Part shown: positions 37,873-64,000 of the stretch, in pieces | Layout of the letters: each line of letters starts with the position of its first letter | How positions within the stretch are numbered: position 1 is the first letter of the stretch | Source of the DNA: Bacilli bacterium | Lineage (GTDB): Bacteria; Bacillota_I; Bacilli_A; RFN20; CAG-826 | Direction: 5' to 3' | NCBI GenBank assembly: GCA_045222195.1 | Contig: JBGUXN010000029.1 | Span: 742 to 64,741, forward strand | DNA length: 64,000 nucleotides | Made by a program: the position numbers and the translations under genes | The notes under the pieces: generated by a model | Database searches by the model: none | What the model was told of the DNA's origin: nothing | The model's input: the letters and a program-made list of their open reading frames with translations, nothing else

Positions 37873-39900
37873 CTACGCTTGTGCAACGTATCCGTCAATA
37901 AAGATTTCTCTAATGTGTTCTAATGTATGTTCTGAGATGCCAAAAGACATCAAATGATTCTTCATCTTATCAGCGAAATTATCACCGCTTAAAGCTTCTG
38001 TTTTAGAGATCCACTGTGGAAATTCAGCATCGTTTTCAGTCAGTTTAACAGTTCTACCTTGTGTGAACTGTGTCCAGACATAGTCTCTAGTCATATCTTG
38101 AATGCTAACACCCAATAAGGATTCTAAGAAGAATGAAGCAATGCCAGTACGGTCCGCACCATAGGTACAGTGTAATAAGGCTGGGTTAATATCACAGTTT
38201 GCGATTGTATTAAAAATAGTCACATATTGATTAGCAATATTTGTGCCACTATAAGTGCCACCTTCCCAGCGTACTGGTTCTGAGCCAGAAGGAATTGAGG
38301 CTTTAACTAAAGTTACTGGCCATGCAGCAGTATTAGCAGGAGATTGACTTGGCACATTAGCGCTATCTCTTAAATCGATATCAACTTTAATACCTAATTC
38401 TTTAATCGCGGCTAAACCTTTGCCCTCGTTATCAAGTTCGCTTCTTGTAGAAGAATAACCGGATTGATTTAATTGAGCGCATCTAAAGTAGAGGCCTTGT
38501 TTAATCTTTTGACCAGGCACTAAATATGTATTCCAACCACCGATATCACGGAAGTTTAAAACGTTAGGAACTTTAACAACACGTGGCGCTAAAGAAGTAG
38601 ATGTAGATGTTCTAATTTCAGCGGAAGCTAAACCATCTTCACTAGTTGCGGCACGATAGTAATATGTAGTGTTTAATTTAGCGTTCCATAATTCGTAGTA
38701 TGTGACGGTGGCTGTATTAATTGGAGCACTATTAAGAGCGCTTTCACTTTCTGCTACTTGAACGTAATATGTACCTCTACCAGCAAGGTCATCAAATCTC
38801 AATTTCATGGCTGAAGGAGCGGATAAATCGCTACCATCTGCATATGTTTTATAGTTTTCAATGTGATTATCATGGAGGAATTGATATTGATTTAAGTTAT
38901 GGAAATCATTATCAGGTACTTCATTCACACTTAATGGATCAACTGGATTCCATGTGGCTAAGTTACTTGACCAATTATCTTGCCAGGAACTCCAAGAGTT
39001 CATGCATAAAAGTGTGGAATCTTTAGAATAGTTTGTGCCATCTGCCCAAGAAGAACCTGAGAATGAGAAATCAGCGGATTGATTGCCCCACGTAAATGCA
39101 GATGCAGTAGATGAATATCTAGAGAATTTGAAATTGTTATAGTCCGCTGGGATATAGGTATATAAGGCATCGCTAGAAGAAACACCCATATGAATGGAGG
39201 TATTGTTATCTCCTTGCCAAGCATAAATACCAAAACTACTACCAGTACCATCCCAGTCAGCAGCCCAATAGCTATTTGGTTTGAAACCAATCTTTCTTTG
39301 AACAATAGCAGCGCCTTCATTTTCAATGAATTTATAAATACCCGAAGCGGTATGAAGGCTTCTAGAATCATTCCAAGAAGCACTGACATCTAAGACACCA
39401 TCAAGGCCTAAATAACGATAACCAATCAAAGTTTGTCCGATAGTATTTGTTTCTAAAACAACATCAGTATTTACTTCGTAATAGTTGGAATTAACATAGA
39501 CTTTTTTAGATGATGATTTAAAGATTGGATAGTATGTGGCGTCACTAGAAATGGTTAATTCCGCTAACTGCTCGTTTGTATAGTCAATCGCATAGCTTTC
39601 TGATGTCGGAGCGGAAGTTTTCCAACCTTGGAAATCATAGCCCTCCAAACTTAATGCAGGAATATCACCCGAATCAATAGACTCACCATTATCTACTTGA
39701 ACCACAACAGGTGTTTGCCAGCCACTATCGTATTCGGTATAGAATGTGACATTATTTCTTAATGGACTGACACGAATTTGAACGCCAAAAGAATTAGCGT
39801 TATCAGTAACACCGTACGCAGCAAATACACTACCTGCTGATAAACCAGCGGCTAGTAAAGCAACAAGGCTGAAAATAACGACTTTGCTACGCTTGCTCAT
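37873..39900 (-). CDS. Exported multidomain protein: SipW-cognate-type signal peptide, Flg_new repeat, CBM25/26-like module, Fn3-like module, C-terminal CX5R phosphatase (Y_phosphatase3 type)
   Basis: The track ORF starts at 39975. I prefer ATG 39900 (RBS AGAGGAGA, 14-nt overlap with the sipW-like gene). N-terminus MSKRSKVVIFSLVALLAAGLSAGSVFAAYGVTDNANSF. Other motifs: GYDFQGW...YYPIF and FGIYAWQGDNN...YNNFKFSR. Phosphatase motifs: NFRDIGGW, GLYFRC, IDLRD, and the P-loop LLHCTYGADRTG (38149-38172). Confidence 0.8.
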   Translation of the reverse strand: MSKRSKVVIFSLVALLAAGLSAGSVFAAYGVTDNANSFGVQIRVSPLRNNVTFYTEYDSGWQTPVVVQVDNGESIDSGDIPALSLEGYDFQGWKTSAPTSESYAIDYTNEQLAELTISSDATYYPIFKSSSKKVYVNSNYYEVNTDVVLETNTIGQTLIGYRYLGLDGVLDVSASWNDSRSLHTASGIYKFIENEGAAIVQRKIGFKPNSYWAADWDGTGSSFGIYAWQGDNNTSIHMGVSSSDALYTYIPADYNNFKFSRYSSTASAFTWGNQSADFSFSGSSWADGTNYSKDSTLLCMNSWSSWQDNWSSNLATWNPVDPLSVNEVPDNDFHNLNQYQFLHDNHIENYKTYADGSDLSAPSAMKLRFDDLAGRGTYYVQVAESESALNSAPINTATVTYYELWNAKLNTTYYYRAATSEDGLASAEIRTSTSTSLAPRVVKVPNVLNFRDIGGWNTYLVPGQKIKQGLYFRCAQLNQSGYSSTRSELDNEGKGLAAIKELGIKVDIDLRDSANVPSQSPANTAAWPVTLVKASIPSGSEPVRWEGGTYSGTNIANQYVTIFNTIANCDINPALLHCTYGADRTGIASFFLESLLGVSIQDMTRDYVWTQFTQGRTVKLTENDAEFPQWISKTEALSGDNFADKMKNHLMSFGISEHTLEHIREIFIDGYVAQA
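39787..39900 (-). other. SipW-cognate (TasA/camelysin-type) signal peptide
   Basis: MSKRSKVVIFSLVALLAAGLSAGSVFAAYGVTDNANSF. The G-x-x-F-A-A-Y-x-V-T-D core resembles the GGT(F/W)A-x-F-x-D core of Bacillus TasA/TapA/CalY signals. Confidence 0.6.
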
Positions 39901-40933
39901 TATTCGTTGTCTCCTCTTGCTTTGGTTCTTCTGGCTTTTCTTCTGGTTGTTCTGGGTCTTTTTTCTTTTTATCAAATAAGAGCCAATAAGCTACTGGAAT
40001 TAGGCATAAGCCTAAAATCATAATTGTACCCCATGGTGAAGATAAGAAACGGATTGGATAACCAAGTTTAGGAACTACATTTACAACTTTGGCTTTTAAG
40101 TCTTTTCTTTGATACCAACCATCGTCGGTATTAGCTTTATCACCACGAATCAAATATCTTTCATCGATATTGAACATGTATTTGTTATCTTCGTCAGCTT
40201 GTTTAACAATATCGTTATTAACTAAGATCTCGTTTTTACCACCACTGAGTTTGACATATTCAAAATAGGTGTTGTATTCGTAATTCTTTTTAGTAATGGA
40301 GAACTTGGCGGGGCTCATTGATTCCCTATGATATGTAATAACGTTTTTATAGTACCCGTTAGCTTCTTTTGAACTAGAAATAGTTGGTTCAATAGATGCA
40401 CTAGCGACGTTGAAGTAATATTCATCCACATCAAATTCATTTTGGGTATAGGCAACGATTTCTACATCGGTGAAAATGTAAGAATTTTCTAAATAGACTT
40501 GAGAAGATGGAGAAACAAACTTAAATGTTGTAACATCACCAATCTTTTCTTCTTGTAAATCAGTTAAATCAAATGTATCGCCACGACGATCAATGTCGAC
40601 GATACGGTGCATATCGGTGCCGATACTTGGATTATCAAAGATAACAACGTCTAAAACATTCAATTTTGTTTTATCAGTGATTCTTTTTGATACCACAAAA
40701 TCAAATGCTTGTATTTGCTTAGTGTCTTTTAAGAATTCTTCGTACTTTTCATTCTTCTTTGACATCGAATCAGTCAAAACGACATCATAACGAGTGTTGA
40801 AGACATAGAAAGGTGTTTTAGTAAACTTATAAATAAGTTCAACGGCAACGAAAACAAATAATCCGCCGACTAAAACATAACCAATAATTCTACCGACCTT
40901 TTTAGCGCGTTTACCGGCTTTTTCTTTTTTCAT
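39887..40933 (-). CDS. sipW: Signal peptidase I, ER/archaeal (SipW) type, with a large insertion between the His box and the GD box
   Basis: 348 aa. N-terminal TM IIGYVLVGGLFVFVAVELI. Boxes in order: VVLTDS56MSK, LDVVIFDN, DMH109RIVDI, RGD265KANTDDGW, VVPKLGYPIRFLSSPWG. A C-terminal TM TIMILGLCLIPVAYWLLF is followed by a K/E/P-rich tail. Confidence 0.8.
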   Translation of the reverse strand: MKKEKAGKRAKKVGRIIGYVLVGGLFVFVAVELIYKFTKTPFYVFNTRYDVVLTDSMSKKNEKYEEFLKDTKQIQAFDFVVSKRITDKTKLNVLDVVIFDNPSIGTDMHRIVDIDRRGDTFDLTDLQEEKIGDVTTFKFVSPSSQVYLENSYIFTDVEIVAYTQNEFDVDEYYFNVASASIEPTISSSKEANGYYKNVITYHRESMSPAKFSITKKNYEYNTYFEYVKLSGGKNEILVNNDIVKQADEDNKYMFNIDERYLIRGDKANTDDGWYQRKDLKAKVVNVVPKLGYPIRFLSSPWGTIMILGLCLIPVAYWLLFDKKKKDPEQPEEKPEEPKQEETTNNEQA

Positions 40934-57720: not shown

Positions 57721-57750
57721 CAAAAAAGCCCCCACTTTTTAAGCGGAGGC
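57721..57750 (-). terminator. Terminator after 57772..60009
   Basis: Minus strand GCCTCCGCT-taaaa-AGTGGGGGC followed by TTTTTTG. Confidence 0.65.
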
Positions 57751-57771
57751 CGTATATCCTTAAATAAAATA

Positions 57772-60009
57772 TTAAGCAACTAGATTAAATAGATAGTAGT
57801 CAATACATGGACAACCAGCATTAGTATTAGCGTTTTGTGAATCTAAGCAACCAGCGATGGTATGTAAACCGGCTGTGACTGTGAATTCGAATTCAATTAA
57901 ACGCCATTCCCAGCTAGCCACTGAACTATCAGTATGATCAGCAGTAACGCAGGTGAATTTACCTGTTTCACCATCTAAACGATATTGATAGACATATGAA
58001 TAGTCGATAGTTGCGGTTTTGGAGTTTTTGCCACCACGACAGTACGCAACTTTCATATTAACTTTGCCATCTTTTGGTGCATAAATGACGATTTCAAATT
58101 TTCTATTAGCGTCATAGTTACCAGTACTTGGAGTGACGAATTTACCACCTGAAGCATTAGCATCAGCGTCATCAGCGACGAATGTGCTATTACTACCCCA
58201 ACCAGAGTTTTTCCACGCTGTTGGTGTGGCGTTTTCCGCTTCAAATTTCACTTCTTCACCAGCTTTTAAGGCAATACCATTACTTGGGATTTCTGGAGTT
58301 TCATCAGTTGGAATGTATGGATCTTGGTCTTTAACATAACCAGGAACGAATTTAACTCTAATAGTTTCTAATGTATCGCTAGATAAGCCTTTACTCATTA
58401 AGTGAGCTTTCATTTGTTCGGCAAATGTTGGTTTATCAGCGTAAGTTGATTTTGTTTTACTAACCCAGTTAACAAATTCACTGTTATAGTCTCTAAAGCC
58501 TTGAGTGGAGAAGTTGGTGTAGCAATAATCTCTACCAATATCTTCTTCAGAAACACCACATAAGGCTAATAAGAAGAATGTCGCAATACCAGTACGGTCC
58601 GCACCAGCGGTGCAATGTAACATAATTGGATTATTATCAGCATCAGCGATAGCTTCAAAGATTGGTTTATAAACTTCACCATAATCTTCCCAACGTCTAC
58701 TTTCAGTACCTGATGGAATAGAAGCTTTTAAAATAGCAACTGGCCAATCTGTAGTTGATGCTGCAGAAGTTGATGGGACTTGATAGCTATCTCTCATATC
58801 GATATCGAGTTTGATACCTAATTCTTTAATAGCGGCTTTACCTTCAGAAGTAATGTTATTTGGATTAGCGCAGCGATAATATAAACCTTGTTTAATAACA
58901 CCATTAGGAATTAAGGAAGATTTCCAACCACCGACATCACGGAAGTTAGAAATACCACCAACTTTTAAGTTTCTTGGTGCTTGAGTAGCTACTTTAAATT
59001 CTTTAGCGGTTGCACTTGCTAAACCTGCTTCACTTGTCGCGGCTTTATAGTAATATGTTTCACCTAATTCAGCATTCCAAAGTTCGTAATATTTAGCAGT
59101 TGTTTCATATGTAATAGCGCCACTAAAATTATTAACGCCTTTAGCGACTTGGACATAATATTTACTCGCATCAGCGACATCATCAAATTTTAGATTTAAG
59201 GCTCTTGGAAGAGATAATTCTTGTGTACCTTGAGCGTAATTTCTGATGTTATGCCAATCAGGGTCATTGTTATATTGATATTGGACTAAGGTATGGAAAT
59301 CATTATCTGGAACAGAATCCACTACTGGAGGTTCTGGATCAACATCACCACTTGGTTCTTCAATTAAGAAATCTAAATAGTCAGTACATGGGCAACCTGT
59401 GGAAGTATTGCTAATAACTGACATAGTAATTTTATGATCACCTTTTGGTAAGGTAATTGGACGATATGTCATTCTATACCAATCAAATTCTTCACTTCTC
59501 GCTCTTAAAATATGATCATCACCATATGGGATTTGTTGGGAAGTTGTTTCGATAACAAAGGCATATGTTAATGACATGTCTTCATCATTACTTAACCATT
59601 TACTACTTTGGCAATACGCCGCAGTCATCGTGATTTTACTTGGTTGATTGAGTTTTAAAACAAAGTCACATGTTCCAGAATTAGCGGTATCACCAGTGGA
59701 TGAGGCTAAATAATAACCACCAGAGGCTTTTTCAGACGCCATGACTGGAGTTGGGAAAATGCTGGATGTAACCCAGTTAGCGGTATTGATATTTTCCGCT
59801 TCAAATCTAATGGTGCCATAGTTATTAATATCAACATTTGGATCACCACTAAATGTGGAAGAAGAGGAACTACTTCTTCTCGATCTAGAATAGTCTTCTT
59901 CACTAGAACTTAGTTCTTCTGATGAATGAGAACCACCTTCGGGTTTCCCACCACAAGCGGCTAAACTTAAAGCGCAAAGCAAAGCCATTAAAAAGAGTTG
60001 TTTTTTCAT
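57772..60009 (-). CDS. Lipoprotein: CBM6/35-like module, Fn3-like module, CX5R phosphatase (Y_phosphatase3 type), second CBM6/35-like module
   Basis: 745 aa with RBS GAGGAG. Lipobox LSLAA-C plus a Ser-rich linker. First CBM-like module IRFEAENINTANW...CPCTDYLDF. Phosphatase motifs: NFRDVGGW, GLYYRC, IDMRD, and the P-loop MLHCTAGADRTG (58594-58617). Second CBM-like module VKFEAENATPTAW...CPCIDYYLF. Confidence 0.8.
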   Translation of the reverse strand: MKKQLFLMALLCALSLAACGGKPEGGSHSSEELSSSEEDYSRSRRSSSSSSTFSGDPNVDINNYGTIRFEAENINTANWVTSSIFPTPVMASEKASGGYYLASSTGDTANSGTCDFVLKLNQPSKITMTAAYCQSSKWLSNDEDMSLTYAFVIETTSQQIPYGDDHILRARSEEFDWYRMTYRPITLPKGDHKITMSVISNTSTGCPCTDYLDFLIEEPSGDVDPEPPVVDSVPDNDFHTLVQYQYNNDPDWHNIRNYAQGTQELSLPRALNLKFDDVADASKYYVQVAKGVNNFSGAITYETTAKYYELWNAELGETYYYKAATSEAGLASATAKEFKVATQAPRNLKVGGISNFRDVGGWKSSLIPNGVIKQGLYYRCANPNNITSEGKAAIKELGIKLDIDMRDSYQVPSTSAASTTDWPVAILKASIPSGTESRRWEDYGEVYKPIFEAIADADNNPIMLHCTAGADRTGIATFFLLALCGVSEEDIGRDYCYTNFSTQGFRDYNSEFVNWVSKTKSTYADKPTFAEQMKAHLMSKGLSSDTLETIRVKFVPGYVKDQDPYIPTDETPEIPSNGIALKAGEEVKFEAENATPTAWKNSGWGSNSTFVADDADANASGGKFVTPSTGNYDANRKFEIVIYAPKDGKVNMKVAYCRGGKNSKTATIDYSYVYQYRLDGETGKFTCVTADHTDSSVASWEWRLIEFEFTVTAGLHTIAGCLDSQNANTNAGCPCIDYYLFNLVA

Positions 60010-60070
60010 ATATAATCTCCTCGCTATTATTTTAGACTAGCTCTAACAAAAATAGTAGATATATTATTAA

Positions 60071-60097
60071 TAAAAAAGGACCAGAAATACTGGCCCT
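60071..60097 (-). terminator. Terminator after 60117..62234
   Basis: Minus strand AGGGCCAG-tattt-CTGGTCCT followed by TTTTTATT. Confidence 0.7.
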
Positions 60098-60116
60098 TTT
60101 AATGTTAAATTAATAA

Positions 60117-62234
60117 TTATGCAAGAGATGTGACTTTTAAACAACAAATTGTCCAAGTATCATTATTCTTTAAAATTTCATATTGATGACCATCGGCTTG
60201 GATGATGTTAGTTCCCGCAGTAACTTTGAGGTTATCAACTTCACCACCGTTTAAAACAGAGTGAACTAAGAAGATACCATCAACAGAAACTGGGAATAAA
60301 CTTGTATCCATTAAGAATTTAGCGGTGAATTCATGTGTTGATGTATCAAATGATGATAATGTCTTATCGAAATCAAATTTGTTTGTCTTATCGCCTAAAA
60401 CATATCCCCAATCAGACCAACCAAGGTTGCCATGGTGTTGTAAGTTGATACCATAAGCTTTGTGATATTGATCTAATGTAAAGTTACCAGTGAATGTACC
60501 ATTAACAACATAATATGGTTTGTTATTAATTAATTCGACATCAGCAGAAGTTGGAGTAACTGTGGCATCAATTGCGCCTTCTTTTTGGGCAATTAAAGAG
60601 ACACAGTTCCATGTATCAGCATTAGCGTATAACTTATATTCATAACCACCAGCGGAAACAACTGTTTCTTCAAAGGAAATATTGAGACCATCCCATGTTG
60701 GAGCAGGAATCGCGGCTTTGAATTCGTCACTTAAATCTTCATAACCATCAATACCATCCCAGTTATCTGGTAATGTATTGATTTCAATGACTTCACCATC
60801 TAATGTATGTCTATAACGTAAGGCATCATTTCTAATTAAAGCTTTTAAGTCTTCATCAGAAGTAGTACCCGCCACTCTGAATTTACCAATATATGGTGTA
60901 CCAGCGTTATTTTTAATGAATGAGTTTTCGCTATCTAATAAGTCGGCTCTTAAAACCCAAGAACCATCAGCTTTATAACTCATTGGTTCGATTAATTTAA
61001 GTGTTTCTGTAGACCAGCTACCACCTTTAATCATGTTTCTAAGTTCGAATTGAGTATTACCAACAGCAGTACCAACGACTTCGTACACTAATTTTTCACC
61101 TTCAAGTTGTAAAGAGACATCAGTGACGGTATATTGACGTTTTTGATAAACAGCAGTATAGGTAATTTCTTCTGTACTTGCGGCATAAGGAACGATTTCT
61201 TTATCGAAACCACGGAAGACGTAAACGCCTTCAGCGTCAGTCGCTTTTCTTGGCGCTTTAGCGGTGAAAGCAGGAACTTCACCAACGGTGATTTCATCGG
61301 CTTTATAACCTTGAATTAAAGTACCATCAGTATTTCTAAAGGCTACGGCAAATTTAATACTAGAATCGATAACTGTGACCACGAATGATTGAACAAATGG
61401 TTGACCATCTGTGCCTTTTGCATCGGTAGTAACGGTAATTGTGGCTTCGCCTTCGCTTAACGCTTTAACTAAACCACTTTCACTAACAGAGGCCACTGTT
61501 GGCGCACTAGAAGCAAATGTGACTTTCTTATTTGTGGCGTTAGATGGTAAAACGGTAACACCGATTTGTTTTTCTTCACCTTTAAGTAAGGTAATATCAT
61601 CAACGTCAATTTCTAAACCAGTTGTCGCTGTTTCTTTAACAGTAACGTTAACGGTTTTAGTAAGTGGATTGCCATCCGCTGCTGGAGCAACTGTGCTAAC
61701 GGTAATAACAGCACTACCAACACCTTTAGCGGTAATTAAACCAAGTTCATCAACAGTAGCAACATCTTCTTTATTTGAAGCGAAGGTACAGCCAGCTTCC
61801 GCTGCTTCATCTGGAGTAATAGTAGCCACGATTTGATGTCTACCATTAACTTCTAATTCAACACTACTGACATCAAGTTCTAAACCAGTAACTGCTGCGT
61901 AGCGCACTGTAATTTCCACTTCGATGGAAAGATCTTCATAATAAATAGTCACTATTTTATCATCGATCTTAAGGGCTTTGGATGGACTCACATAGTAGTC
62001 ATCGACTTCTTTTTCAGAGCCGTCACTCATGACGACATAAACTTTTAAGTTTGTTTTATCAAACTTTTCGCCCACTAAGTATTCGGTTTTAGCACCTTCA
62101 ACTCTAAGGCTCACAGCGGTGACGGCTTTTTGTGATTGTTGGGAACCACCACAGCTAGGAAGTGTGAGGAATGTTGTCGCGCCTAATAAAGCAAGACCGA
62201 TAACAAACGCACCTCTTGTTTTTCTTGTTTTCAT
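60117..62234 (-). CDS. Surface lipoprotein with bacterial Ig-like (Big_3/Big_2) domains and an unknown C-terminal domain
   Basis: 705 aa with RBS AAGGAG. Lipobox LTLPS-C. There are two Big_2-like repeats (VTGLELDVSSVELEVNGRHQI...ITAKGVGSAVITV and TTGLEIDVDDITLLKGEEKQI...VKALSEGEATITV). Confidence 0.75.
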   Translation of the reverse strand: MKTRKTRGAFVIGLALLGATTFLTLPSCGGSQQSQKAVTAVSLRVEGAKTEYLVGEKFDKTNLKVYVVMSDGSEKEVDDYYVSPSKALKIDDKIVTIYYEDLSIEVEITVRYAAVTGLELDVSSVELEVNGRHQIVATITPDEAAEAGCTFASNKEDVATVDELGLITAKGVGSAVITVSTVAPAADGNPLTKTVNVTVKETATTGLEIDVDDITLLKGEEKQIGVTVLPSNATNKKVTFASSAPTVASVSESGLVKALSEGEATITVTTDAKGTDGQPFVQSFVVTVIDSSIKFAVAFRNTDGTLIQGYKADEITVGEVPAFTAKAPRKATDAEGVYVFRGFDKEIVPYAASTEEITYTAVYQKRQYTVTDVSLQLEGEKLVYEVVGTAVGNTQFELRNMIKGGSWSTETLKLIEPMSYKADGSWVLRADLLDSENSFIKNNAGTPYIGKFRVAGTTSDEDLKALIRNDALRYRHTLDGEVIEINTLPDNWDGIDGYEDLSDEFKAAIPAPTWDGLNISFEETVVSAGGYEYKLYANADTWNCVSLIAQKEGAIDATVTPTSADVELINNKPYYVVNGTFTGNFTLDQYHKAYGINLQHHGNLGWSDWGYVLGDKTNKFDFDKTLSSFDTSTHEFTAKFLMDTSLFPVSVDGIFLVHSVLNGGEVDNLKVTAGTNIIQADGHQYEILKNNDTWTICCLKVTSLA

Positions 62235-62410: not shown

Positions 62411-64000
62411 ATGGCTTTAAAAATCGGCAAAGACTGGATTTTGCGTGGCGCATCGATTTTAACAGCGGGTGTTGTAGTCGCTGGTTTAATCATTGGTGAC
62501 ACCATCGTTAAAAATAACGAAAATAACTTAAATTCAATTCTTTGTCCTCCGATTGTCCATGAAGATTCTTTAGTCGTCTCTAGAGAAACTGGTCAAAAGA
62601 TGGCGGAACAAATTATTGAAGAAGGTGCCGTATTACTTAAAAATAATGGCACACTACCACTTAAAGGAAGTAACGATAAAGTTAATGTCTTTGGTTGGGC
62701 AAGTGTCGACTGGGCATATGGTGCGAATAGCGGCTCTTGTTCAGGTAGAGTCATGGCGGAAGATTCTAAACGTGAATCTTTAGTGGACATCTATGATGCC
62801 TTAAGCGCTTATCAAATTAATTATAATAATGAATTAAAAGACATGTATTTACGCTATGCAAGCCCATATGTATATGCCTTAAAAGATCCAGGTTCTGTTA
62901 ATAACGATAATGTTATTACATTACATGAACCAGAAATTAGTGACTCATCTTATTATTCTGAATCTTTATTAGAAAACGCTTTAGCGTATTCAAATACAGC
63001 GTTAGTTGTTATTACCAGAAACGCTGGTGAAGATATTCCCGCTGATCGAGCGATGAGAAAAGCTGGTAGAAACTATGTCACAGAATCAAATAAGATTTAT
63101 TTAGATTTATCAATTGAAGAAGAACATTTATTAACATATGTTGGTGAAAATTATAAAAACGTTGTCGTTTTAATTAATTCTCCAGCGGCGATGGATTTAT
63201 CTTTCTTAAATACCATTCCAGGCTTAGATGCCGCCCTTCAAGTTGGTTTTACTGGTACACATGGCGCCGCTTCTATTCCTTCTTTACTATATGGCGAAAA
63301 GACTCCATCTGGTCATTTAGTGGACACATATACTTATGATCGAACATTAAGTTTTGCTTATAGAGCGAAAAATGCCGCTTCCTTTAGTGGTTCGGTATTA
63401 AGTGGGAAGAAATTCTTTGAATATATTGAAAATATTTATGTTGGATATCGCTGGTATGAAACCGCTGACGCTACCCACTACTGGGCGGATTATGATCGCA
63501 TCTTATTAGATAGTAACGATAAAGAAGTCTTAGTGAAAGGTTATGATTCAGTGGTTCAATATCCGTTTGGATATGGCTTAAGTTACACAGACTTTGAATA
63601 TAAATTAGAGGATAGTTATTTCACTAAAAACGGAGAAAAGATTGATGATGTTGATGTCGAAGGTGAATATCACATCAAACTTAAAGTCACTAATATTGGT
63701 GAAAGAAAAGGCAAAGATGTTGCGCAAGTCTATTTAGAAGCGCCATATCATAGAGGTCAAATTGAAAAGAGCGCGAAAGCACTTGTGGCTTATGAAAAGA
63801 CGATTGAATTAGAACCAGGCAAGAGTGAAATCTTAGATATTGAAATCCAAATTTCTGATTGCTTATCTTATGACTGCTACGACTTAAATAATAACTCTCA
63901 TACTGGTTATGAATTAGATAAAGGTGAATACAAATTCCATTTAGGTAAAAACTCTCACGTTGATATCGAAATGACTAATTTAGAAAATGAAAAGGTGCCA
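62411..64000 (+). CDS. GH3 beta-glycosidase, partial (N-terminal 530 aa; continues right of the window)
   Basis: Absent from the ORF track because it has no in-window stop. ATG 62411 is preceded by AAGGAG (62395-62400). TM anchor ILTAGVVVAGLIIGDTI. Motifs: AVLLKNNGTLPL, VNVFG, VQYPFGYGLSYTDF (in frame at 63557), KVTNIGERKGKDVAQVY. It is most similar to the partial GH3 at 1..1809. Confidence 0.85.
   Translation, partial: MALKIGKDWILRGASILTAGVVVAGLIIGDTIVKNNENNLNSILCPPIVHEDSLVVSRETGQKMAEQIIEEGAVLLKNNGTLPLKGSNDKVNVFGWASVDWAYGANSGSCSGRVMAEDSKRESLVDIYDALSAYQINYNNELKDMYLRYASPYVYALKDPGSVNNDNVITLHEPEISDSSYYSESLLENALAYSNTALVVITRNAGEDIPADRAMRKAGRNYVTESNKIYLDLSIEEEHLLTYVGENYKNVVVLINSPAAMDLSFLNTIPGLDAALQVGFTGTHGAASIPSLLYGEKTPSGHLVDTYTYDRTLSFAYRAKNAASFSGSVLSGKKFFEYIENIYVGYRWYETADATHYWADYDRILLDSNDKEVLVKGYDSVVQYPFGYGLSYTDFEYKLEDSYFTKNGEKIDDVDVEGEYHIKLKVTNIGERKGKDVAQVYLEAPYHRGQIEKSAKALVAYEKTIELEPGKSEILDIEIQISDCLSYDCYDLNNNSHTGYELDKGEYKFHLGKNSHVDIEMTNLENEKVP

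What the first reader, a model, noticed from the sequence alone, without database searches (positions are those of the whole stretch)
57772..60009. Second exported CX5R phosphatase, a lipoprotein sandwiched between two CBM6/35-like modules
This protein is a paralogue of the C-terminal half of 37873..39900. The shared module is Fn3-like plus phosphatase, from DNDFH(T/N)L through HCT(A/Y)GADRTG to FVPGYV/FIDGYV. The P-loop DNA GGTGCGGACCGTACTGG is identical in both genes.

Here export is by a lipobox. The phosphatase is flanked by two beta-sandwich modules that start (I/V)(R/K)FEAEN and end CPC(T/I)DY. Two independently anchored copies of an extracytoplasmic Cys-phosphatase, each fused to carbohydrate-binding-type modules, argue that the substrate is a phosphorylated glycan rather than a protein.
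Basis: partly seen in the sequence, partly recalled or inferred. Interest (0 to 1): 0.6.

Follow-up and report, generated by a model that had tools for sequence, protein, structure and literature searches.

The report
Surface cysteine phosphatase flanked by CBM35-like modules
An uncultured, apparently wall-less herbivore-gut bacterium carries a membrane-tethered cysteine phosphatase held between two sugar-binding-type modules, one of eleven exported phosphatases of this family in a 1.4 Mb genome; the architecture has not been described and resembles plant and animal starch/glycogen phosphatases, but its substrate is untested.

Summary
ORF 57772..60009 (-) encodes a 745-aa lipoprotein with lipobox LAAC and Cys19. 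Its order is a Ser-rich linker, beta-sandwich 1, an Fn3-like domain, a Y_phosphatase3 domain (HCTAGADRTG; Cys466, Arg472) and beta-sandwich 2.

- **Paralogy.** It is 51% identical (E 1e-107) to the C-terminal half of 37873..39975. The identical P-loop DNA is just the longest of several short exact runs at 60% overall DNA identity.
- **Flanking modules.** They are homologous to each other (E 1e-13). They adopt a CBM35/CBM6 fold (Foldseek TM 0.65-0.78 to many CBM35 structures). Intermediate sequences link them to Pfam CBM_6 and CBM_35.
- **Catalytic residues.** Cys, Arg and the P-loop Asp are invariant in 80 aligned homologues. The Lys that defines MptpB-type lipid phosphatases is replaced by Ala throughout the clade.

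New findings:
- The genome holds 11 exported paralogues, not two. This expansion marks the genus (0-12 matches per 0.8-1.8 Mb genome, usually 5-12), which also lacks penicillin-binding proteins.
- The C-terminal module is shuffled onto non-catalytic surface proteins.
- Close orthologues often lie next to GH3 or GH10 genes.

The phospho-glycan substrate idea is plausible and parallels SEX4/laforin, but it is unproven. The modules may only target the enzyme to plant particles. I class it as a new variant of a known kind, of moderate interest.

The parts
57772..60009 (-). Whole gene: 745-aa lipoprotein. Order: CBM35-like module, Fn3-like domain, Y_phosphatase3 domain, CBM35-like module.
   Evidence: ORF; Pfam PF13350 at 109.6 bits against a cut-off of 22.2; AlphaFold2 model with mean pLDDT 87.
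60017..60022 (-). Shine-Dalgarno-like GAGGAG, 7 nt before the ATG.
   Evidence: Sequence read.
59953..60009 (-). Lipoprotein signal peptide, residues 1-19 (MKKQLFLMALLCALSLAAC), with lipobox L-A-A-C.
   Evidence: Lgt and LspA are encoded in the genome. 10 of 11 paralogues have a lipobox.
59842..59952 (-). Ser-rich disordered tether, residues 20-56 (15 Ser in the 38 residues 20-57).
   Evidence: pLDDT below 50 for residues 1-51; composition.
59350..59841 (-). N-terminal CBM35/6-like beta-sandwich, residues 57-220 (IRFEAEN ... ASGG ... CPCTDY).
   Evidence: Module profile match, i-Evalue 1.5e-63; beta-sandwich with pLDDT mostly around 90; CBM35 and CBM6 hits in Foldseek.
58975..59328 (-). Fn3-like domain, residues 228-345: two short helices, then about 6 strands. 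It is always found directly before the phosphatase domain.
   Evidence: pLDDT 94-98; present with the phosphatase domain in nearly all of the 120 listed homologues. Only sub-threshold Fn3 hits: titin Fn3, 3mpc and Pur_ac_phosph_N.
58333..58974 (-). Y_phosphatase3 catalytic domain, residues 346-559.
   Evidence: Pfam; PDB sequence hits 8dhi (1.5e-17) and 1ywf MptpB (1.9e-5); Foldseek 8dhj at E 1e-11.
58588..58617 (-). P-loop HCTAGADRTG, residues 465-474: nucleophile Cys466, phosphate-binding Arg472, putative general acid Asp471.
   Evidence: H465-G474 are invariant in 80 sequences except position 468. Residue roles are taken from MptpB mutagenesis in PMC3091653.
58282..58332 (-). Pro/Asp/Glu-rich linker, residues 560-576.
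57775..58281 (-). C-terminal CBM35/6-like beta-sandwich, residues 577-745 (VKFEAEN ... ASGG ... CPCIDY).
   Evidence: Stand-alone AlphaFold2 model, pLDDT 86.7 and pTM 0.86. The Foldseek top 50 are nearly all CBM35, CBM6 or CBM36, with TMq 0.47-0.62. The same module sits on non-phosphatase proteins.
57727..57751 (-). Terminator-like hairpin directly after the stop codon.
60074..60100 (-). Terminator-like hairpin between the upstream Big_2 lipoprotein gene and this gene, which suggests the gene is monocistronic.
37873..39975 (-). Paralogue (Fn3-like plus Y_phosphatase3 C-terminal half) inside a starch-utilisation cluster. It is not part of this gene but is part of the finding.
60117..62234 (-). 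Upstream Big_2/Big_3 lipoprotein. Its position relative to the phosphatase gene is conserved in the P0007 orthologue locus.
62411..64000 (+). Divergent, domain-permuted GH3 with hydrophobic stretches at both ends. It runs on to 65437 in window numbering, 1008 aa. A GH3 also lies beside the P0007 and P0009 orthologues.

Best explanation
The gene encodes an active, surface-displayed cysteine phosphomonoesterase that is targeted to polysaccharide.

Export and display (inferred from sequence). Lgt and LspA process the lipobox. The protein then hangs from diacylglyceryl-Cys19 on the outside of the membrane by a roughly 35-residue Ser-rich tether. The bacterium appears to have no peptidoglycan wall, so the protein would be exposed directly.

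Targeting (fold shown, binding inferred). Two CBM35/6-fold modules flank the enzyme. They hold the enzyme, and with it the cell, on a glycan, most likely a plant cell-wall polymer. Xylan or glucuronoxylan is a lead only.

Catalysis (inferred from the family). The Fn3-like plus Y_phosphatase3 core hydrolyses phosphate monoesters. Cys466 attacks the phosphorus, Arg472 holds the phosphate and Asp471 in the P-loop acts as general acid, giving a phospho-cysteine intermediate.

Substrate and role (inferred). The P-loop has only one basic residue because Ala replaces the Lys of lipid phosphatases. I therefore expect singly phosphorylated, glycan-borne or glycan-associated esters: sugar phosphates or phospho-oligosaccharides and polysaccharides. 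I do not expect polyphosphoinositides. The physiological role would be to release phosphate and/or unblock sugars for a small-genome scavenger. The enzyme is one of a genus-wide set of usually 5-12 such lipoprotein phosphatases, each with different appended modules.
For: - Family: PF13350 at 109.6 bits. Nearest solved relatives are the C. difficile PTP 8dhi/8dhj and MptpB.
- Active site: Cys466, Asp471, Arg472 and the NFRDxGG motif are invariant in 80 homologues.
- Export: lipobox plus Lgt and LspA genes. No PBP transpeptidase in 13 of 13 genomes of the genus.
- Module fold: CBM35/6 with probability 1.0, TMt 0.65-0.78.
- Module sequence link: 18 of 45 related module segments hit Pfam CBM_6, CBM_35_2 or CBM_35; hhalign probability 99.9.
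- Module motif: E..E...D and ASGG are invariant.
- P-loop: HCT[AYHF]GADRTG in 118 of 120 homologues, against the lipid-phosphatase signature HCXXGKDR, where the Lys binds phosphoinositide (PMC3091653).
- Neighbours: GH3 beside the window gene and the P0007 and P0009 orthologues, GH10 directly upstream of P0011.
- Related contexts: rumen MAG block of xylose isomerase, multi-CBM lipoprotein, 2 phosphatases, AraC and GH3; paralogue inside a starch locus.
- Expansion: 11 copies here, and matches in 17 of 18 other genomes of the genus.
Against: - There are no biochemical data of any kind.
- The window's own two modules do not reach any Pfam CBM threshold, and no ligand-binding residues were mapped.
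- The gene is monocistronic.
- More distant homologues with the same CBM-Fn3-phosphatase architecture sit in unrelated housekeeping neighbourhoods, so the link to glycoside hydrolases is partial.
- The C-terminal module is shared with non-catalytic surface proteins. It may be a generic adhesion cassette unrelated to the phosphatase substrate.
- The one characterised environmental family member, Pho16B, is promiscuous (PMC6409689).
- No monoester-phosphorylated xylan is known (my own knowledge).
Confidence: 0.55

Rival explanations
1. It is a dedicated phospho-glycan phosphatase. The enzyme removes covalently bound phosphate from a polysaccharide, for example C3/C6-phosphate of starch or a phosphorylated wall or capsular glycan. 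This would let neighbouring glycoside hydrolases proceed, making it a bacterial extracellular counterpart of SEX4, LSF2 and laforin.
For: - It combines a CX5R phosphatase with CBM-fold modules, as in SEX4 and laforin.
- The paralogue lies inside a starch-utilisation cluster.
- GH3 or GH10 genes lie next to several orthologues.
- The P-loop has a single basic residue.
Against: - The phosphatase belongs to a different family: Y_phosphatase3, not the SEX4/laforin DSP type.
- The CBM is of the 35/6 type, not the starch-binding 20/48 type.
- This gene is not in the starch locus and is monocistronic.
- Only 2 of 11 paralogues carry the module.
- No phosphorylated ligand is known for the likely CBM35 targets.
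- Literature searches found no bacterial precedent.
Confidence: 0.25
2. It is a broad-specificity phosphate-scavenging ecto-phosphatase or phytase. The enzyme hydrolyses soluble organophosphates from feed (phytate and lower inositol phosphates, nucleotides, sugar phosphates). The beta-sandwich modules merely hold the cell or enzyme on plant particles where such compounds are released, or act as spacers.
For: - Pho16B, a secreted Y_phosphatase3 enzyme, is promiscuous and has phytase activity (PMC6409689).
- The genome is small and lipoprotein-rich, and also encodes a purple-acid-phosphatase-like lipoprotein.
- The 11 paralogues carry diverse appendages.
- An ENPP-type phosphodiesterase lies near the P0004 orthologue.
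- There is no consistent operon partner.
- Many invariant Arg residues lie in the catalytic domain.
Against: - The P-loop lacks extra basic residues, which in this family correlate with activity on polyphosphorylated inositol head groups (PMC3091653).
- There is no match to the PTP-like phytase family in Pfam.
- Keeping two CBM modules on one enzyme is costly for a purely soluble-substrate enzyme.
Confidence: 0.3
3. It is a protein-tyrosine or phosphoinositide phosphatase acting on host or neighbouring cells, or on the bacterium's own surface proteins, as for MptpB and LipA. The modules would serve as adhesins.
For: - Family membership and the nearest structures, MptpB and the C. difficile PTP.
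- NCBI names relatives 'tyrosine-protein phosphatase'.
Against: - The signature Lys of the lipid-phosphatase class is Ala in 118 of 120 relatives.
- The protein is lipid-anchored, not released.
- The organism is a gut or rumen commensal MAG with usually 5-12 copies per genome, which is atypical for an effector.
- The WPD, KNRY and Q-loop motifs of classical PTPs are absent in this family (PMC3091653).
Confidence: 0.08

Closest known systems
MptpB (M. tuberculosis), LipA/Lmo1800 (Listeria) and Pho16B: the 'atypical lipid phosphatase' branch of Pfam Y_phosphatase3; also the C. difficile PTP (PDB 8DHI/8DHJ)
   Same: Same Pfam family and fold. CX5R P-loop with the catalytic Asp at position 6 (..DRTG). 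No WPD loop. Several members are secreted.
   Different: - The P-loop Lys (HCXXGKDR) is Ala here and throughout the clade.
- It is lipoprotein-anchored rather than free.
- It has an obligatory Fn3-like N-terminal domain.
- It is flanked by CBM35/6-like modules.
- The family is expanded to about 11 copies per genome.
Glucan phosphatases SEX4 and LSF2 (plants) and laforin (animals)
   Same: The design principle is the same: a cysteine (CX5R) phosphatase fused to a carbohydrate-binding module, so that the enzyme acts at a polysaccharide surface.
   Different: - The phosphatase subfamily differs: DSP there, Y_phosphatase3 here.
- The CBM families differ: CBM48/CBM20 there, CBM35/6-like here.
- Those enzymes are intracellular (plastid or cytosol); this one is an extracellular lipoprotein.
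- No activity has been shown here.
- It is an analogue, not a homologue beyond the PTP superfamily.
CBM35 and CBM6 modules of xylan-, mannan-, uronic-acid- and alpha-1,6-glucan-active enzymes (e.g. PDB 2W46, 2VZP, 2W47, 2W1W, 4QB2, 3WNN)
   Same: Same beta-sandwich fold (TM 0.65-0.78). EAE ... ASGG ... (N/C)xDY sequence landmarks. Relatives of the module hit Pfam CBM_6, CBM_35_2 and CBM_35.
   Different: - Only 11-21% identity, and the window's modules are below Pfam thresholds.
- They are attached to a phosphatase or to Big_3 surface proteins rather than to glycoside hydrolases.
- The ligand is unknown.
- A CPC motif sits before the terminal DY.
PTP-like cysteine phytases of rumen bacteria (e.g. 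Selenomonas ruminantium PhyA)
   Same: Exported CX5R phosphatases from the rumen habitat.
   Different: Different Pfam family, with no PTPlike_phytase hit here. Those enzymes have no CBM or Fn3 modules.

Membership tests
Pfam Y_phosphatase3 (PF13350) | Profile match above the gathering score | tested here: met
   109.6 bits against a cut-off of 22.2, residues 349-511.
Pfam Y_phosphatase3 (PF13350) | Intact CX5R P-loop with nucleophile Cys and Arg | tested here: met
   HCTAGADR at 465-472; invariant in 80 homologues.
Atypical lipid phosphatases (MptpB/LipA class) | P-loop signature HCXXGKDR[TA]G with strictly conserved Lys, which binds phosphoinositide | tested here: not met
   HCTAGADRTG, with Ala at the Lys position. 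118 of 120 relatives have HCT[AYHF]GADRTG. The signature is defined in PMC3091653.
Atypical lipid phosphatases (MptpB/LipA class) | Catalytic Asp at P-loop position 6 | tested here: met
   Asp471 is invariant.
CBM6/CBM35 superfamily | Beta-sandwich fold superimposable on solved CBM35 and CBM6 structures | tested here: met
   C-module model: 2w46 TMq 0.62/TMt 0.74 and 2vzp 0.60/0.78, with the top 50 nearly all CBM35, 6 or 36. The full-length model gives the same CBM hits.
CBM6/CBM35 superfamily | Sequence match to Pfam CBM_6 or CBM_35 above threshold | tested here: inconclusive
   The window's two modules have no hit. 5 of 31 close homologues hit CBM_6 weakly. Among more distant module segments found with the profile, 11 hit CBM_6, 6 hit CBM_35_2 and 1 hits CBM_35 at 2.9e-16. 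hhalign between the two sets gives probability 99.9.
CBM6/CBM35 superfamily | Carbohydrate binding | not testable with these tools
   Needs glycan arrays, affinity electrophoresis or ITC.
Bacterial lipoproteins | Lipobox [LVI][ASTVI][GAS]C after a basic n-region and a hydrophobic h-region, with Lgt and LspA present | tested here: met
   MKKQLFLMALLCALSLAAC; Lgt in two copies; LspA.
Glucan phosphatases (SEX4/LSF2/laforin) | DSP-type catalytic domain with a glucan-phosphatase P-loop (CzAGxGR, recalled from memory) and CBM20/CBM48 or surface glucan sites | tested here: not met
   The catalytic domain is Y_phosphatase3. The P-loop is CTAGADR, with Asp where Gly is expected. The CBMs are 35/6-like. 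The motif definition rests on my memory, not on a tool result.
Glucan phosphatases (SEX4/LSF2/laforin) | Release of phosphate from phosphorylated glucans | not testable with these tools
   Needs an enzyme assay.
PTP-like phytases (Pfam PTPlike_phytase) | Profile match | tested here: not met
   Not among the Pfam hits at E <= 0.1.
Fibronectin type III-like domains | Profile or structural match for residues 228-345 | tested here: inconclusive
   Only sub-threshold hits: titin Fn3 at 0.027, 3mpc 'Fn3-like protein' at 0.063, Pur_ac_phosph_N in 2 of 24 and fn3 in 1 of 24. The model shows a small beta-sandwich. No separate fold search was run.

The most novel reading that the evidence does not exclude
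These proteins found a bacterial, extracellular class of glycan-directed phosphatases. In this reading they are CBM35-like-targeted Y_phosphatase3 lipoproteins that strip phosphate esters from plant or microbial polysaccharides, or from oligosaccharides held at them. They would be a convergent counterpart of SEX4 and laforin, massively expanded in a wall-less herbivore-gut genus as a core part of its glycan and phosphate foraging.
Probability: 0.25. Interest if true: 0.8.

Novelty: new variant of a known kind. Interest (0 to 1): 0.52.

Why it matters
- **A new enzyme class, if confirmed.** Phosphate on dietary and microbial glycans, such as starch phosphate, is a known obstacle to glycoside hydrolases. 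The only enzymes known to remove it from polymers are eukaryotic intracellular glucan phosphatases. A surface phosphatase with its own CBMs in gut or rumen bacteria would be a new enzyme class for carbohydrate-active-enzyme catalogues. It would also be a candidate feed or starch-processing enzyme.
- **Biology of an uncultured lineage.** Whatever the substrate, a genus with 1-2 Mb genomes and no penicillin-binding proteins usually keeps 5-12 exported cysteine phosphatases. That points to an unrecognised and important trait of uncultured Mollicutes-like gut bacteria: phosphate or sugar scavenging at particle surfaces.
- **A new CBM subfamily.** The FEAEN module is a small, divergent CBM35/6 subfamily, with about 190 clusters among 1.84 billion representative proteins. 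It may merit description as a new CBM group once a ligand is found.

Tried and rejected
- **Pfam on the isolated modules and the Fn3-like piece:** no hits.
- **Module profile against PDB sequences:** nothing meaningful. The link to CBMs needed fold search and intermediate sequences.
- **P-loop DNA identity as a sign of gene conversion:** rejected. Overall DNA identity is 60%, and several comparable exact runs lie at conserved motifs.
- **Operon context:** the gene is bracketed by terminator-like hairpins, so co-transcription with the Big_2 or ADH genes was rejected.
- **Conserved neighbourhood across 64 genome loci:** only a rumen-MAG block for CBM-less relatives was found. Four long contigs of distant same-architecture homologues showed unrelated neighbours.
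- **First genome-contig scan with the single protein:** found nothing. The alignment-based scan worked.
- **Literature searches:** queries for PDB 8DHI, bacterial glucan phosphatases, CBM35-phosphatase fusions and cysteine phytases with CBMs found no precedent.
- **Earlier scan notes by sequence:** nothing.
- **Neighbours of the other nine paralogues:** mostly unannotated lipoproteins, with no Pho-regulon or consistent CAZyme link.
Full report
**1. What is at the coordinates**

The minus-strand frame 57772..60009 is open and encodes 745 residues. A GAGGAG ribosome-binding site lies 7 nt upstream of the ATG. Terminator-like hairpins on the same strand lie just upstream (60100-60074, after the preceding Big_2 lipoprotein gene) and just after the stop codon (57751-57727). 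The gene therefore looks monocistronic.

- lipobox LAAC with Cys19;
- IRFEAEN (67) and VKFEAEN (587);
- CPCTDY (206) and CPCIDY (733);
- DNDFH (235);
- HCTAGADR (465-472), i.e. Cys466 and Arg472;
- FVPGYV (554-559).

**2. Paralogy**

Residues 226-559 align with residues 346-697 of the protein from 37873..39975 at 51% identity, E 1e-107. The 17-nt P-loop string occurs exactly twice in the window. However, the shared region is only 60% identical in DNA. The P-loop run (18 nt) is simply the longest of several exact runs (18, 17, 16, 13 nt) over conserved peptide motifs. It is not evidence of recent exchange.

**3. Domain anatomy**

Pfam finds only Y_phosphatase3 (PF13350, 109.6 bits, residues 349-511). 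An AlphaFold2 model built on 80 homologues (mean pLDDT 87) resolves the following:

| Residues | Feature |
|---|---|
| 1-51 | disordered; signal peptide plus Ser-rich tether |
| 58-217 | beta-sandwich 1 |
| 221-227 | flexible hinge |
| 228-345 | small helix-plus-sandwich domain, pLDDT 94-98 |
| to ~556 | phosphatase domain, packed directly after the small domain |
| after ~556 | linker |
| 578-744 | beta-sandwich 2 |

The two sandwiches are homologous to each other: 28% identity, E 1e-13.

**4. Are the flanking modules CBMs?**

- Fold. The full-length model hits CBM35 and CBM6 structures. A separate model of the C-terminal module (pLDDT 86.7, pTM 0.86) gives a Foldseek list whose top 50 are almost all CBM35, CBM6 or CBM36. 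Examples are 2w46 (TMq 0.62/TMt 0.74), 2vzp (0.60/0.78), 2w47, 2w1w and 4qb2. The list also includes the CBM35s inside cycloisomaltooligosaccharide glucanotransferase, GH98, GH115 and Xyn30D. Probability is 1.0 and E runs from 2e-7 to 1e-4, at 10-21% identity.
- Sequence. The window's own modules match no Pfam model, and a profile of 31 modules finds nothing in PDB sequences. The same profile, run against 1.84 billion representative proteins, retrieves only 190 clusters. From their non-phosphatase members I cut out 45 module segments. Of these, 11 hit Pfam CBM_6, 6 hit CBM_35_2 and 1 hits CBM_35 at 2.9e-16. The two module sets align profile-to-profile with probability 99.9.
- Motifs. The invariant positions are E-A-E near the start, A-S(-G-G) in the middle and P-x-x-D(-Y) at the end. 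From my own knowledge these are the landmarks of CBM6/35, including their structural calcium site.

I conclude that the modules are a small, divergent subfamily of the CBM6/35 superfamily. Whether they bind sugar, and which sugar, is untested.

**5. The Fn3-like claim**

This claim is only weakly supported. Profile searches give consistent but sub-threshold Fn3-type hits: titin Fn3 at 0.027, 3mpc 'Fn3-like protein' at 0.063, Pur_ac_phosph_N in 2 of 24 members and fn3 in 1 of 24. The domain is present with the phosphatase domain in nearly all of the 120 listed homologues.

**6. The catalytic domain**

The nearest solved relatives are the C. difficile protein tyrosine phosphatase 8DHI/8DHJ (sequence E 1.5e-17; Foldseek 1e-11) and M. 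tuberculosis PtpB. In the 80-sequence alignment the following are invariant: H465, C466, T467, G469, A470, D471, R472, T473 and G474; the NFRDxGG motif; and several Arg residues. Nothing suggests a dead enzyme.

The family paper defines 'atypical lipid phosphatases' by HCXXGKDR[TA]G. In that work the Asp is essential for catalysis (proposed general acid), the Lys binds phosphoinositide, and the number of basic P-loop residues sets activity on polyphosphorylated head groups (PMC3091653). Here the Lys is Ala, and 118 of 120 homologues read HCT[AYHF]GADRTG. The protein is therefore a Y_phosphatase3 member but fails the defining signature of the lipid-phosphatase class. That argues, by inference, for less highly charged substrates.

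A secreted soil relative, Pho16B, is promiscuous, with naphthyl phosphate preferred over phytate (PMC6409689).

**7. Family size and organism**

- Copy number. The window lies in a 1.45 Mb, 77%-complete assembly. PF13350 matches fall in 11 genes. A motif scan gives the same 11 ORFs. Ten have lipoboxes, and the eleventh is the starch-locus paralogue. Three lie close together on contig C46.
- Module distribution. Only two of the eleven carry the FEAEN module: this gene (twice) and C23:9243-10937 (once).
- Lineage pattern. 17 of the 18 other genomes of the same genus have matches, usually 5-12 in 0.8-1.8 Mb. Other genera of the order have 0-3.
- Cell envelope. No genome of the genus (0 of 13 searched, including ones 92-95% complete) has a PBP transpeptidase domain. 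Six of eight genomes from other genera of the order do. Lgt and LspA are present, and a crude count finds about 100 lipobox ORFs.
- Habitat. Related loci come from rumen, omasum, horse, rabbit and human gut MAGs labelled Bacilli, Erysipelotrichaceae or Mollicutes.

The picture is of a wall-less, lipoprotein-rich gut lineage that displays enzymes directly on its membrane.

**8. Distribution of the architecture**

More than 400 metagenomic proteins match the query. The common form is lipobox, one FEAEN module, Fn3-like domain and phosphatase, about 570 aa. The form with a module on both sides of the phosphatase is restricted to close relatives (69% identity or more) plus a few others such as P0020 and P0029. 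Forms of about 420 aa lack the module.

The C-terminal module type also occurs at the C-terminus of proteins without a phosphatase, at 78-85% identity in five of them and 66% in a sixth. These are P0121-P0126, which are Big_3 or multi-EAE-module surface lipoproteins. Among 60 more distant module-bearing proteins, 42 carry Big_3 and hardly any carry a glycoside hydrolase catalytic domain. The module is thus a shuffled surface cassette, and most of its hosts are non-catalytic.

**9. Gene neighbourhood**

| Locus | Neighbours |
|---|---|
| Window | domain-permuted GH3 with hydrophobic ends (62411.., 1008 aa), divergent from the Big_2 lipoprotein gene, which precedes the phosphatase |
| P0007 (73% id) | the same three genes |
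| P0009 (73% id) | a conventional GH3 as the divergent immediate neighbour |
| P0011 (71% id) | a GH10 directly upstream |
| P0004, P0005 | no glycoside hydrolase; an ENPP-type phosphodiesterase and CotH near P0004 |
| Rumen MAG block | xylose isomerase, multi-CBM lipoprotein, two tandem Fn3+phosphatase genes, AraC, permuted GH3, membrane protein |
| Distant same-architecture homologues on long contigs | unrelated housekeeping neighbours |
| Window paralogue 37873 | GH13 amylase, CBM26 protein, MalK, permeases, solute-binding protein and CBM48 pullulanase |

Earlier notes of this scan (e1-3207552, e1-3207549, e1-3207555) had already proposed a starch-phosphatase role for the paralogue. I treat them as leads only. 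Overall there is a recurrent but not universal association with glycan-degrading genes. The xylan-type neighbours (GH10, GH3, xylose isomerase) fit the xylan-associated CBM35s among the best structural matches. That is a lead, not a result.

**10. Interpretation**

Shown:
- an intact, exported Y_phosphatase3 enzyme;
- the CBM35/6 fold of both flanking modules;
- the large lineage-specific expansion;
- module shuffling.

Inferred:
- surface display via the lipid anchor;
- targeting to a polysaccharide;
- Cys466, Asp471 and Arg472 chemistry;
- a preference for mono-phosphorylated, non-lipid substrates.

Open: the substrate. I rate 'glycan-targeted surface phosphomonoesterase' at about 0.55. Nested within it, or competing with it, are the strict phospho-glycan reading (about 0.25) and promiscuous phosphate scavenging including phytate (about 0.3). 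A MptpB-like effector role is unlikely (about 0.08).

**11. Comparison and novelty**

By family this is a Y_phosphatase3 protein, closest to the MptpB, LipA, Pho16B and C. difficile PTP group, but outside the lipid-phosphatase signature. By design it resembles SEX4, LSF2 and laforin, though with a different phosphatase subfamily, a different CBM family and an extracellular location. It is an analogue, not a member.

I found no description of CBM-flanked Y_phosphatase3 lipoproteins or of this expansion. Sources name relatives only 'tyrosine-protein phosphatase'. I class it as a new variant of a known kind and rate interest at about 0.5. The architecture and the expansion are real and undescribed, but the function remains conjecture.

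Noticed in passing
whole genome G000 and 12 further genomes of the same genus: No PBP transpeptidase domain (PF00905) in any of 13 genomes of the genus, including ones 92-95% complete. Six of eight genomes from other genera of the same order have 2-4. Lgt and LspA are present. The genus looks wall-less (Mollicutes-like), with roughly 100 lipobox ORFs in this assembly.
   Followed up: partly
G000 contigs C3, C23, C25, C36, C42, C46 (x3), C61; window 37873-39975 and 57772-60009: There are eleven Y_phosphatase3 paralogues in a 1.45 Mb assembly, ten of them with lipoboxes. Three lie close together on C46 (30417-38207) and have different C-terminal appendages. P-loops vary (HCxxG[ATK]DRTG). 17 of the 18 other genomes of the genus have matches, usually 5-12.
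   Followed up: partly
proteins P0121-P0126 (metagenomic); compare window 57775-58281: The C-terminal CBM35-like module of this gene recurs at the C-terminus of otherwise unrelated surface lipoproteins that have no phosphatase (Big_3 repeats, other EAE modules). Identity is 78-85% in five of them and 66% in P0126. This points to recent module shuffling.
   Followed up: partly
window 62411-64000, continuing to 65437 in window numbering (contig C29 63152-66178): A domain-permuted GH3 (GH3_C and Fn3-like first, catalytic N-domain last), 1008 aa, with hydrophobic stretches at both ends. Homologues at 24-36% identity lie beside Y_phosphatase3 genes in many rumen MAG loci.
   Followed up: partly
loci L026, L027, L029, L035, L039, L040, L042, L044-L047: A block conserved, wholly or in part, across rumen MAGs: xylose isomerase, multi-module lipoprotein, two tandem Fn3+Y_phosphatase3 lipoproteins without CBM, AraC regulator, permuted GH3, membrane protein.
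   Followed up: partly
relatives G006 C20:37009-37704, G009 C22:40555-41247, G010 C13:839-1522, G013 C6:4410-5084: Several long Y_phosphatase3 frames in genomes of the same genus are reported with two in-frame TAG codons (one further frame has a TAA and one a TGA). These could be pseudogenes, assembly errors or recoding. Not examined.
   Followed up: no
G000 C25:12754-14388: A purple-acid-phosphatase-like (Metallophos plus Pur_ac_phosph_N) lipoprotein lies a few genes from the paralogue C25:7175-8488. It is a further exported phosphatase in this small genome.
   Followed up: no
window 60117-62234: The Big_2/Big_3 lipoprotein has a C-terminal region of about 400 aa with no family match. Its position between the GH3 and the phosphatase gene is conserved in the P0007 locus (L081, L082).
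   Followed up: no
loci L078 and L079 (P0004 orthologue): An ENPP-type phosphodiesterase (PF01663) lies three genes upstream of the orthologous phosphatase and a CotH-family gene lies downstream.
   Followed up: no
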